Below are positions 32,904-64,000 of a DNA stretch of 64,000 bases, in pieces. The notes under the pieces were generated by a model. It did not search any database, was not told the origin of the DNA, and saw nothing but the letters and a program-made list of their open reading frames with translations. A program made the position numbers and the translations under genes. This DNA comes from Paraspadella gotoi (lineage: Eukaryota > Animalia > Chaetognatha): positions 10,663,045-10,727,044 of the forward strand of contig CM119267.1 of assembly GCA_051294375.1 (NCBI GenBank), in the 5' to 3' direction. Numbering within the stretch: position 1 is the first letter of the stretch; each line of letters opens with the position of its first letter.

Positions 32904-35900
32904 TCAAGCAATGGTGGTTGATAAGAGCGCCACCCCCCTTTCATAAACATGATCAGCACTGAGTCCCTTGATGCAATTTATAATGACGGTAAATAAAAGA
33001 TCCGCCCTCGTGGAATTTAGGTAAACCGGAAGTTCCACCTTTCCTTTCATGTCGATCTTTTCTCCAGAGCCAAGACGAACCCACTGAAGACATGTCAGGT
33101 TGAGATCCGTCTGAATCATGCTGCTTAACTGTAGCAGGTTGTTTTTGGTTTCTAGAGGGGAATAAGAGAAAAAAAATTGGTAAAATTGGTAAATTAAATT
33201 ATGGGGTGAAAAAGTTTAAAATTTACAATTACAGATAGAAAAACAGTTTTTCTAGCATTAAAAGAACGGCTTTATTAGTATGTCAATTACATACCGGCTC
33301 CTTGTAGTTTCAGTCCAGTGACCATGAAGGAACAGTCGTCTACCTTGGGCTTTTCGCCCGAATTAAAAATGGTGAAGTTCAGGTGAAGTTCTTCTAATGA
33401 CCAGTGATTTGCCTGCGCTACATATTGTCGAGTCGCAGTGATATACGCTTCCGGGATAAAGAGATTTCCCAAAACGACCTACAATATGAAATATGATCAA
33501 TAAATTTATTATCACCAGGTTATGTATTTCAATAATTTTATACCGGAACAGATTTGAATCCAATGGGCCCTTGACCGTTTCCAGCGTCTGATAATTTTTG
33601 AAGCTGTTTGATTCTGTCACTGAAATCTTGTATCCAGGTGATGACAGTAAGACTCTTGGGGACCGCATAGCGGTTCCACGATTCCGGCAGCATCCCTTTA
33701 GCTAATTCGCTAATTAATACGCGCATGTAATTTGTCTGCTTCTTCAAACCCTGACAAACGGCAATGACCTCTTCTAAATCGCTTCGCACGTCGCTAAGAA
33801 GTTTTACACCATGATTTACTTCACGCTCGAAGTATCGGAAAAGCGGATCCTTGATATTTTCAACAGTGCGCTTTAGAGGAGTCAAGGACTTGGGTATGAG
33901 CTTAAGCCAAGTAGAGGCTGAGGAAAACAGCGTCCGCATCCAAGCGGGACGTCCATCGACGGAGGACGACCGACGCTCTTTCTCTTTCTCGGACGGCAAC
34001 TCATCATCGTCTTCGAGCAATTGCATTTTTAGCAACTTTCCAATCAGATCGGTACCTCTGGTAGTAAGAAGTACTTTCTCTGCATTGTTGGGCAAACCGA
34101 GCCAGCAGGGAAGCTGATTATCGCTCAACTGGTTCACCCACTGTATGAATTGTTCCCTCCTTATGCCATCAGGCATTGTTAGAGCTTTGTTGGAGCCATC
34201 AAGCTCATCAATTAATTTGAAATCTCCTTCAAAAGTTTTGATTGTGAATAGCTTGTTAATGAATGCATTCATGAGACGCTGATCAAACTCATTGTCGATT
34301 CGACCACCATAAATACTTTGCGAGAGCAGCTTGCACAGGGCATCCCATGGAATTTTTTCCGGTGGTAAATTGGTACGTTGTCCCATTGAAACCATGTCAA
34401 TCCAAGTATCCAAGGTGTCGCAGGCTATGCGAAGGTCACTTTCACCAAACTCATATTTCTTGGACCAACCAAGAGGTGCGTAGCGAAGACGTTCCTGAAC
34501 GATTGCATGAAACCATGCCAACAAGAAGTAAAGACGAGCCCTTTCATTAGGCGCACGACACATTCGAGCTGAAGGAACGGTGGCAAATGTGCGGAAAAGA
34601 TTAGCTTTGATGCCAGGTGGTGGTTCAAAAACGAAAACTCGACCTGAACGTATTAAATTGGTTGGAATTTTAGGAATAATTTCCATTGCAAGGAACAAAC
34701 GAAAGTTTGCATGCGGTTGGATTGAATGCAGTTTTTTTTCTAGCTGAACAAGCCATTGTGGTGCCAAATGAACATTCTTTAATAACACCCAGCGTCCTGA
34801 CTTAGAAGCGGCGTTTATTGCCTTTTCGGCTTCATTGAAACCCTCAGCAGAACCAATGGCAATAGCAGAAAGCTGTTTGTTATGTTCAGCAGCAAGGTCT
34901 TCCACACGTCCTGATGCATCATAACCAGGAACAGAGCACATCAGGATTGGTGTGCTCGCCTTTATTTGGTTATCAACAATGTCTGCTAGATTCAGTTCTT
35001 CCTCTGCCTCTTCCAGGAAAGATTTACCTAATACACTAATTACAAATTCTCTGGCCATAGAAATTAACCTGTCTGGTCTGAAAACCTGTATGACAAGTAA
35101 CTTGTTGACTGCTTCACTAATGATGGTTGATTGTATTCCTTCAGTAGTATCCCAAAGTTGTGGAACATTCCTTTCTGGATTCCCTGATGAAAGCCAATCT
35201 TTGAAATCAGGTACTTTGGTAATTTGTTTTGCCAATTCAGAAAACCGCGGTATTTGGCTGCTGAGTCGCACCACGGCTTCATTCTGCTCTGACGAAAGGA
35301 ATGGTATTTCATGTGCACCACGAACAACCACTTCCTGCCCACGTAAGAAGTGGTTGAATTCTATGTCAAAAGAAGGTTCTGTTGTACTTCCTTTCAACTG
35401 AATTCGAGACAAAAGCATGGCAAAAACAATGCGATCGTTGTGTAGCATCCCCCTCGCTACTTGTTCAAAGGTAGTCTTAAAAAGATGTGTAGTAATAACA
35501 GACAGTCGTTGGGAATGGTCCAATGCTGGGACTAATTTGTCATTTTTATATAAAATTGAATGAAATATATCCAAAAAGAACTGAAGAGAATATTGGTATA
35601 AGAAGTGAACTTGAGGCATCGATTCGATGGTAAAATATATCGATGAGCAAGAAAGCGATAACGGCATGTATTGCTGTGAAACGGATTCAATCTCAGAAAT
35701 AACAGCATCTGTTTCTTCAACCTTTTGAGAAATTTCGGTGGCCTCTTTTTTCAGCGTTTCTAACGTAGCTATGATGGAATCATCGTCTAAAATTCTTCCC
35801 TTTACATCATTTAGGGCTTGCAAAAGGGATTTCTCCAATTGCCGCAGACGTAGTTTGAATTCACCTTGGAGTTTCAGCAGATCGGATCGTTTTTGATCAA

Positions 35901-63074: not shown

Positions 63075-64000
63075 TTACTGAGGAGGTGGTCCGTCAGAAT
63101 ACCTCAGTTGCGGTTGCAACGACCACCTAAGGTTATTCCTAGAATGACAACAATCAGGGGAAAACAAAATGTTGAGAGCGATGAACAGCACGAGAAATGC
63201 GATGGAAACGAGGGCCAACGTGGAACGGCGGCGGAATATGCGAGATAGAAAACTGGACGAGATTCTTGAGTCGGTGTCATCTTCGGCGTCGTCGTCGTCA
63301 TCATGGGATTCGCAAATAAAAGGCCACCTCTTATCTTCAAAAGTATCCTCGACGCCTTCATCGCAAGACGGGTTCAACCAATCGGCGGCGCTCAATTCAT
63401 TAACTTCCCGACACAGAGCTCTCAATTGCGAGAGGAGAATCTCTCGCGCCGCGGAAGACGCAACTGGGAGTAACTCATTCGCCAATTCCTGCAAGCGTCG
63501 TAGGTCTTCTTCCAAAAACTCGGCGTGCCTCTCTAAAAGTCGACGATCCATTTCAAAAGACTCAAAATTGAAATCTTTCGCATCCTTCGCAGATCCACGA
63601 TTTTCCAATGTCGCTCTTCGCAGCATCTGCCCTCGTCGACGTTGAATTTTAAGTCCAAAAACAGTCTCTCCTACGAATTCATCAAACATCAACCACTGCT
63701 GAAACGTGGCTTTCAGATCGATTAATCGTTGCGCGAGCACATTCGCTAATCCTTCCAATTCTTCGTCTACTGCGGCAACGGAATCTGAGATTTTCTGAAC
63801 ATTGTACCTCGGATTTGTGTCGGCAAAGAGGATGAGGCGGCTCTGTGTCTCGTCGAGCAGTAAACGACGATCGGCTATATCGCGGCCGAGATTCTGTAGA
63901 TCGGAGACCAACGCTTCAAGACGAGCAGCATCGTCGGCGACGACGTCTGTTTCGATCCAAGACGAAACTGTGTCGCGGAAGTCGATGGCACTGAGGAGAT
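63075..64000 (-). CDS. KASH-domain protein (nesprin/SYNE-like), 3' end only
   Basis: Frame is open to the window end. Spectrin-repeat-like helices, then a TM segment (LALVSIAFLVLFIALNILF) and a luminal tail DCCHSRNNLRWSLQPQLRYSDGPPPQ-stop with the KASH PPPX end. Confidence 0.88.
   Translation of the reverse strand, partial: LLSAIDFRDTVSSWIETDVVADDAARLEALVSDLQNLGRDIADRRLLLDETQSRLILFADTNPRYNVQKISDSVAAVDEELEGLANVLAQRLIDLKATFQQWLMFDEFVGETVFGLKIQRRRGQMLRRATLENRGSAKDAKDFNFESFEMDRRLLERHAEFLEEDLRRLQELANELLPVASSAAREILLSQLRALCREVNELSAADWLNPSCDEGVEDTFEDKRWPFICESHDDDDDAEDDTDSRISSSFLSRIFRRRSTLALVSIAFLVLFIALNILFSPDCCHSRNNLRWSLQPQLRYSDGPPPQ

What the first reader, a model, noticed from the sequence alone, without database searches (positions are those of the whole stretch)
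32904..64000. KASH protein, Bicaudal-D and dynein heavy chain lie together as a nuclear-positioning module
Seen: KASH gene, BICD, Ras and DYNC1H1 are consecutive and co-oriented. Known: BicD is an activating dynein adaptor, and mammalian nesprin-2 recruits dynein through BICD2 for nuclear migration. Inference: anchor, adaptor and motor may be co-transcribed as a functional cluster, which is rare in animals. Inherited linkage is an alternative; human DYNC1H1, RCOR1 and SYNE3 are on 14q32, and KRAS and BICD1 are on 12p.
Basis: partly seen in the sequence, partly recalled or inferred. Interest (0 to 1): 0.7.

Follow-up and report, generated by a model that had tools for sequence, protein, structure and literature searches.

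The report
Dynein genes inside sixteen-gene same-strand run
Genes for a nuclear-envelope anchor, the dynein adaptor Bicaudal-D, Ras and the dynein motor do sit side by side in this animal, but they are four of sixteen mostly unrelated genes that all face one way and are likely read as long shared RNAs cut apart by leader splicing, so a dedicated nucleus-positioning module is unproven.

Summary
The order KASH - BICD - Ras - DYNC1H1 is real, and all four genes are found as RNA in one run. Co-orientation is not special to them: all 16 recognisable genes in the window lie on the minus strand, and the other 12 are of mixed function. The KASH gene is likely Klarsicht-like, not a giant nesprin. No LEWD lies in the visible 307 aa. 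RNA cover from neighbouring genes comes within 9 nt (Ras/dynein) and 44 nt (KASH/BICD). The dynein contig starts on a splice-acceptor-like site with 9 unplaced letters in front, and its length predicts read-through across RNF25 to 4 nt short of the next acceptor. This fits abutting, trans-spliced operons of the Ciona or arrow-worm kind, but no leader sequence was seen. None of 80 BICD loci from distant animals had Ras, dynein or KASH nearby; close relatives could not be tested. Verdict: observation confirmed, likely shared transcription unit, functional module not supported but not excluded.

The parts
63075..64000 (-). 3' end (last 307 aa) of a KASH protein, likely Klarsicht-like; helical region, transmembrane segment, KASH peptide ending PPPQ
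   Evidence: Pfam KASH E 6e-12; 39-41% identical over its full length to P0241/P0242; atlas top cluster for P0242 'putative klarsicht protein', 0.96; on a 5,228-nt RNA contig
62019..63011 (-). RNA-covered spacer after the KASH stop (3' UTR or read-through), reaching to 44 nt from the BICD contig
   Evidence: X1 records 4 and 3; bin depths reproduced
59513..61897 (-). Bicaudal-D, single exon, 794 aa; AAxYG box at residue 37; cargo-binding end 80 of 90 identical to human BICD2 715-804
56221..57053 (-). Ras (H/K/N type), 5 exons, C-terminal CVIL; its RNA contig spans 55005-58823
54995..55020 (-). Pyrimidine tract and CAG directly before the first genome-matching base (54995) of the dynein RNA contig; candidate trans-splice acceptor
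   Evidence: side 130 at joint 54780-54866; 9 unlaid letters; bin depth 158.8 fits an end at 54995, 158.7, not 55004, 163.2. Scores poorly on a matrix built from 14 introns
32904..54937 (-). Cytoplasmic dynein-1 heavy chain, 17 exons, 4,668 aa
   Evidence: (first 10 introns seen spliced)
31399..32403 (-). RNF25-like RWD + RING gene; predicted to lie inside the dynein RNA contig
   Evidence: Pfam (gene name recalled); length arithmetic, 3' part of the contig not seen
21739..31209 (-). SMCHD1-like gene; candidate acceptor with first exon base 31317
   Evidence: Pfam SMCHD1_S5, HATPase, SMC hinge; acceptor pick
15683..20821 (-). ANAPC11, ZNHIT3, TMEM72, MED6, FBXO45 in series; stop-to-start gaps 79, 733, 928, 96 nt
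1..15131 (-). RCOR, PCCB, KIF6, MMGT1 and a GANP-like gene in series; gaps 285, 166 and 3,159 nt for the last three junctions (RCOR ends approximate; GANP name recalled, Pfam gave only RRM and weak FG repeats)

Best explanation
The KASH, BICD, Ras and dynein heavy chain genes are four of sixteen consecutive same-strand genes of mixed function, which are likely transcribed as long read-through RNA and likely cut into single mRNAs by spliced-leader trans-splicing at acceptors that abut the upstream gene's RNA. Shown: gene order, strand, splicing, RNA cover of the spacers, and the dynein contig starting right after a CAG with 9 unplaced letters. Inferred: that those letters are the end of a leader, that RNA runs from dynein through RNF25, and that downstream genes lack their own promoters. 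On this reading the anchor, adaptor and motor probably do act in one pathway, but their neighbourhood is a by-product of packing broadly used genes into long units, helped perhaps by shared chromosome ancestry.
For: 16 of 16 genes on one strand, 0 of 75 plus ORFs with a family. Stop-to-start gaps of 79, 96, 166 and 189 nt, none with AATAAA. In run X1, Ras RNA reaches 55005 and dynein RNA starts at 54995; KASH-side RNA reaches 62019 and BICD RNA 61974. The 15,656-nt dynein contig minus leader, 5' UTR and the 14,007-nt coding sequence leaves 1,582 nt, which if colinear ends at 31,322: through RNF25 and 4 nt short of the acceptor chosen beforehand for SMCHD1. Abutting genes are the Ciona operon pattern (PMC2760879, passages). 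C. elegans operon genes are rarely related in function (PMC2776167, passages). In the arrow worm P. gotoi 18% of genes are in operons and one gene can take several leaders (PMC12460157, passages), which could explain a short leader stub. 0 of 80 distant BICD loci share a neighbour.
Against: No leader letters were seen at any gene. One RNA run, assembled contigs only, possibly the same source as the window; a contig across two genes shows no single transcript. The Ras contig runs unbroken through its best acceptor (first base 57238) and 1.77 kb beyond. The acceptor scan is weak: 2 of 15 genes at p<0.05, combined p 0.029, and the dynein site scores low. The BICD-Ras spacer is broken by repeat-like cover at about 58.6-59.5 kb, so continuity there is unknown. 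A 3,159-nt gap before the last gene could hold a promoter. The lineage is unplaced, so trans-splicing in this animal is assumed, not known.
Confidence: 0.55

Rival explanations
1. Tightly packed but separately promoted genes in a compact genome: long UTRs touch or overlap, the 9 letters are a short cis-spliced exon or a library adapter, and there is no operon.
For: Separate contigs for KASH, BICD, Ras and dynein. AATAAA hexamers occur in all three spacers of the finding. Gaps of 1.2-2.5 kb leave room for promoters. No leader seen. Relatives X2 and X3 show no listed contig across two genes (table cut).
Against: Does not explain 16 of 16 on one strand (3e-5), 79-96 nt gaps without AATAAA, or a contig end predicted 4 nt from the next acceptor.
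Confidence: 0.25
2. One reading: selection brought and keeps the nuclear anchor, adaptor and motor together so that they are co-transcribed as a nuclear-positioning module.
For: Three of four consecutive genes belong to one pathway; klarsicht, Bic-D and dynactin act in one nuclear migration in flies. A rough count gives 6e-4 such windows per genome for one named 40-gene pathway. BICD and KIF6 lie on contigs of different length in four chromosome-scale assemblies, while KIF6 and the Klarsicht-like gene share one in Lineus, hinting that BICD joined from another chromosome.
Against: With about 300 pathways the same count is 0.19 per genome, and the scan reads very many windows (assumed inputs). 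Ras sits in the middle; 12 unrelated genes follow. 0 of 80 BICD loci keep a neighbour; named neighbours differ in four locus sets. Dynein and BICD serve many cargoes (established knowledge).
Confidence: 0.12
3. Inherited linkage: the order is a remnant of ancient neighbourhoods (KASH with dynein and RCOR; Ras with BICD).
For: Lineus KIF6 (P0139) and Klarsicht-like (P0271) both sit on a 29,083,594-nt contig. Human DYNC1H1/RCOR1 on 14q32 and KRAS/BICD1 on 12p (recalled, no call).
Against: Shared chromosome is not adjacency; no distant BICD locus has Ras next to it. The KASH gene is not SYNE3-like. It says nothing on strand or RNA pattern; it can only raise the odds of the meeting.
Confidence: 0.08

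Closest known systems
Ciona intestinalis operons (abutting genes, SL trans-splicing; PMC2760879, PMC7986045)
   Same: Same-strand neighbours whose RNAs come within a few nucleotides of each other at an acceptor-like site
   Different: Largest Ciona operons hold 6 (7 predicted) genes; here the same-strand run holds at least 16. Leader not shown. The animal is unplaced; no tunicate was in the tree.
Chaetognath (Paraspadella gotoi) operons (PMC12460157)
   Same: Housekeeping-type genes in series with gaps under 250 nt; no CpG depletion in the exons tested (o/e 0.8-1.3)
   Different: Longest reported operon has 9 genes; signalling genes are depleted from those operons, whereas Ras is in this run. 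That the window is from an arrow worm is only a guess.
Drosophila Klarsicht / Bic-D / dynein nuclear-migration pathway (PMC2891732)
   Same: A likely Klarsicht-family KASH protein, a BICD with conserved cargo end and dynein-1 are all present
   Different: A genetic pathway, not a gene cluster; no clustering of the three turned up
Mammalian nesprin-2 - BICD2 - dynein (PMC13001094)
   Same: BICD cargo-binding end 80 of 90 identical
   Different: This KASH protein's kin are 1,200-1,700 aa, with no SYNE-type Pfam domains and no LEWD; the BicD2 site of nesprin-2 (SR52-53) has no tested counterpart here

Membership tests
SL-resolved eukaryotic operon | Consecutive same-strand genes with short distance between RNAs | tested here: met
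   16 of 16 same strand; RNA cover within 9 and 44 nt; coding gaps 79-189 nt at four junctions
SL-resolved eukaryotic operon | A common spliced leader on downstream mRNAs | tested here: inconclusive
   9 unplaced letters before an acceptor-like site on the dynein contig, letters not shown; no second gene
SL-resolved eukaryotic operon | Polycistronic precursor spanning genes | tested here: inconclusive
   Predicted dynein-RNF25 contig from length only; contigs cannot prove one molecule
SL-resolved eukaryotic operon | Single promoter, none internal | not testable with these tools
   No CAGE, ATAC or raw reads
Functional (pathway) gene cluster | Members mostly of one pathway, with bounded edges | tested here: not met
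   3 of 16 genes in the run belong to the pathway; Ras inside; run continues past dynein
Functional (pathway) gene cluster | Adjacency conserved across species | tested here: inconclusive
   0 of 80 distant loci, only 18 with 1.5 kb upstream and 25 with 3 kb downstream; no close relative found
Functional (pathway) gene cluster | Co-expression beyond neighbours' baseline | not testable with these tools
   Contig depths cannot rank genes
KASH proteins | Transmembrane helix plus C-terminal KASH peptide ending PPPx | tested here: met
   Pfam E 6e-12; aligns to nesprin-1 KASH peptide weakly
Klarsicht-like KASH proteins | Full-length likeness to Klarsicht, few spectrin repeats, not giant | tested here: inconclusive
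   Via relative P0242: atlas 0.96 to a cluster auto-named klarsicht, but recognition 1887 is under 2300; family alignment with centipede, annelid, nemertean and octopus proteins; no named Klarsicht sequence compared directly
Nesprin-1/2 motor-binding KASH proteins | LEWD motif and SR52-53 BicD2 site about 450-750 aa before the C-terminus | not testable with these tools
   No LEWD in the 307 visible aa. Kin carry a conserved S[DE]xxW motif about 500 aa from the end, some 200 aa beyond the window edge
Cytoplasmic dynein-1 heavy chain | Full domain set and best match to DYNC1H1 | tested here: met

The most novel reading that the evidence does not exclude
An animal transcribes 15 or more unrelated genes over 60 kb as one trypanosome-like unit resolved by trans-splicing, longer than the 6-9 gene maxima in the papers read here, and within it a Klarsicht-like anchor, BICD and dynein heavy chain have been gathered at the front as a co-produced nuclear-positioning set.
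Probability: 0.1. Interest if true: 0.8.

Novelty: new member of a known kind. Interest (0 to 1): 0.38.

Why it matters
Functional clustering of non-homologous genes is rare in animals, so a real anchor-adaptor-motor cluster would be notable; the evidence does not show one. The wider finding is more testable: a same-strand run of at least 16 genes with RNAs that appear to abut at acceptors suggests operons longer than those described in Ciona (6-7 genes) or P. gotoi (9), in a lineage with no named close relative in the databases searched. One long-read or 5'-end RNA experiment would settle it. It also flags Klarsicht-like proteins outside insects as candidates for BICD binding.

Tried and rejected
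No whole genome is held, so run length beyond the window and genome-wide strand bias are unknown. No listed run is on record as RNA; X1 proved spliced when laid. Uncovered stretches in X1 (54996-55004, 61975-62018) are single-study holes and prove nothing by themselves. Contig depths (179, 28, 151, 206) were used only to check coordinates, not to rank expression. Metagenome scan with lineage-specific BICD patterns: 326 pattern matches, 0 relatives. KIF6 tree (41 rows, quick method, careful search unfinished; 40 of the 120 listed hits used): window on a long branch, in no starred group, not with rotifers. Acceptor matrix from 14 introns is overfitted and weak. Rfam: 0 matches. PDB gave only weak KASH-peptide and coiled-coil hits for the KASH fragment. 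The atlas did not answer for the window's own KASH fragment or for the plus ORF at 4078-4437. No complex prediction was run: the part that would bind BICD is outside the window. Earlier scan notes: none by place, sequence or pathway words. The P. gotoi operon table (xlsx) was too large to read and could show whether this order exists there.

Full report
Observation. Six-frame translation and Pfam confirm four consecutive minus-strand genes: the last 307 aa of a KASH protein (63075-64000, E 6e-12), a single-exon BICD (59513-61897, E 3e-132), Ras (56221-57053) and a dynein heavy chain. The dynein model has 17 exons, all 16 introns GT-AG, 14,007 nt and 4,668 aa without internal stop; five pieces matched cytoplasmic dynein-1 best in the PDB. 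Run X1 shows the first 10 dynein introns and all 4 Ras introns spliced out, and holds contigs for all four genes.

Context changes the meaning. I scanned 52 of 82 minus-strand and all 75 plus-strand ORFs of 85 aa or more. Sixteen genes are recognisable and all are on the minus strand: KASH, BICD, Ras, DYNC1H1, RNF25, SMCHD1, ANAPC11, ZNHIT3, TMEM72, MED6, FBXO45, RCOR, PCCB, KIF6, MMGT1 and a GANP-like gene (RNF25 and GANP names recalled from domain content). No plus ORF reaches a cut-off. The chance under independent orientation is 3e-5. The four genes of the finding have among the widest coding gaps; the tightest are ANAPC11-ZNHIT3 (79 nt), MED6-FBXO45 (96), KIF6-MMGT1 (166) and RNF25-SMCHD1 (189), none with AATAAA.

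RNA pattern. In X1 the spacers are covered. Ras RNA reaches 55005, and the dynein contig's first genome-matching base is 54995, directly after a pyrimidine tract and CAG; record arithmetic leaves 9 unlaid letters in front, and the bin depth fits an end at 54995 (158.7 against 158.8 observed) and not at 55004 (163.2). KASH-side RNA reaches 62019 and BICD RNA 61974. The 15,656-nt dynein contig has 1,582 nt left after the stop codon; if colinear it passes through RNF25 and ends at 31,322, 4 nt short of the acceptor that one search had already picked upstream of SMCHD1. This last step is inferred; that part of the contig was not seen. Against: the Ras contig runs unbroken through its best acceptor, the acceptor scan is weak (2 of 15 genes at p<0.05, combined 0.029, dynein site low), repeats break the BICD-Ras spacer, and contigs from one run cannot show single molecules.

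The KASH protein. Its nearest kin match all 307 aa at 39-41% (P0241, P0242). P0242 is 1,410 aa with KASH and weak spectrin hits and aligns with unnamed proteins of Lineus, Capitella, Dimorphilus, Argonauta and Strigamia. Its top atlas cluster is auto-named 'putative klarsicht protein' (0.96; recognition under the threshold, so moderate evidence). The X1 contig allows at most 1,721 codons if complete. There is no LEWD in the window part; kin carry S[DE]xxW about 500 aa from the end, beyond the window. In nesprin-2, LEWD binds kinesin light chain and BicD2 binds SR52-53 (PMC13001094 and PMC12581424, passages). In flies klarsicht, Bic-D and dynactin are needed for photoreceptor nuclear migration (PMC2891732, passages). 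So the three proteins plausibly share a pathway; binding is untested.

Is the grouping selected? A scan with lineage-specific patterns found no close relative. A broad scan confirmed 115 BICD stretches and kept 80; 0 of 80 had a tblastn hit to Ras, dynein or KASH, but only 18 had 1.5 kb upstream and 25 had 3 kb downstream, and several are redundant. Among 38 flanking ORFs from 12 loci, named neighbours were PTP/SPRY, PI3K/TM9SF, RPB2 and CD225. Contig lengths hint that KIF6 and the Klarsicht-like gene share a chromosome in Lineus, and that BICD and KIF6 do not in Pecten, Gigantopelta, Glandiceps and Antedon (Biomphalaria ambiguous). A rough count with assumed inputs gives 6e-4 three-of-four windows per genome for one 40-gene pathway and 0.19 for 300 pathways: a notable coincidence, not proof. 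A search for Bicaudal D, dynein heavy chain, klarsicht, operon, microsynteny and gene cluster (4 of 6 terms) listed 2 papers, neither on clustering by title and abstract start.

Lineage. BICD's best hits are unnamed ENA proteins at 72-75%, then molluscs near 43%; KIF6 is 46-62% identical to all named animals and unplaced in a quick tree. An arrow worm would fit but is a guess.

Comparison. Ciona operons have directly abutted genes, at most 6 (7 predicted) (PMC2760879, PMC7986045, passages). P. gotoi has 18% of genes in operons, the longest with 9 (PMC12460157, passages; its operon table could not be read). C. elegans operon genes are rarely related in function (PMC2776167, passages). Searches for longer animal units returned only the arrow-worm paper and mainly trypanosomatid or nematode work (listing only). 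An earlier scan note on another genome (e1-7145845) reached a similar unproven reading; it is not independent support.

Verdict. The adjacency is real. The best reading (0.55) is a long same-strand run, likely polycistronic and trans-spliced, that happens to include three members of one pathway. Separate promoters (0.25), a selected module (0.12) and inherited linkage (0.08) remain. Interest 0.38.

Noticed in passing
window 47906-51522: A 3.6-kb element bounded by a perfect 69-nt inverted repeat fills most of dynein intron 11; inside are GA microsatellites and GAC/GAA-rich low-complexity tracts, no Pfam match above cut-off. Likely a non-autonomous DNA transposon.
   Followed up: partly
window 21739-31209: A full SMCHD1-like gene (GHKL ATPase, S5 domain, SMC hinge) in an invertebrate whose exons show no CpG depletion.
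   Followed up: no
window 4078-4440 (+), within 1900-4900: GC-rich 120-aa plus-strand ORF with no Pfam match in the only 3-kb gap of the run; may be a small gene, a promoter region or noise. It is the likeliest break in the unit.
   Followed up: partly
window 5529-8240, 59513-61897, 33544-39560, 42389-47467: KIF6 and BICD are intronless and dynein has exons of 6.0 and 5.1 kb: strong intron loss, with remaining introns clustered at the gene's 5' end.
   Followed up: no
window 54987 and 61975 (-): An AATAAA lies 8-12 nt downstream of the candidate acceptors of both dynein and BICD; may be chance in AT-rich leaders.
   Followed up: no
window 27720-28009: 18-nt tandem repeat (about 11 copies) in an SMCHD1 intron.
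   Followed up: no
L016 1-22358, L030 2109-12378, L035 192-5552: BICD loci of other compact-genome animals also sit among same-strand neighbours (all 12 long ORFs in L016), but different ones: PTP/SPRY, PI3K/TM9SF, RPB2.
   Followed up: partly
P0242, P0254, P0269-P0273: Klarsicht-like KASH proteins in annelids, a nemertean, an octopus and a centipede are unnamed in the databases and share an S[DE]xxW-acidic motif about 400-530 aa before the KASH end.
   Followed up: partly
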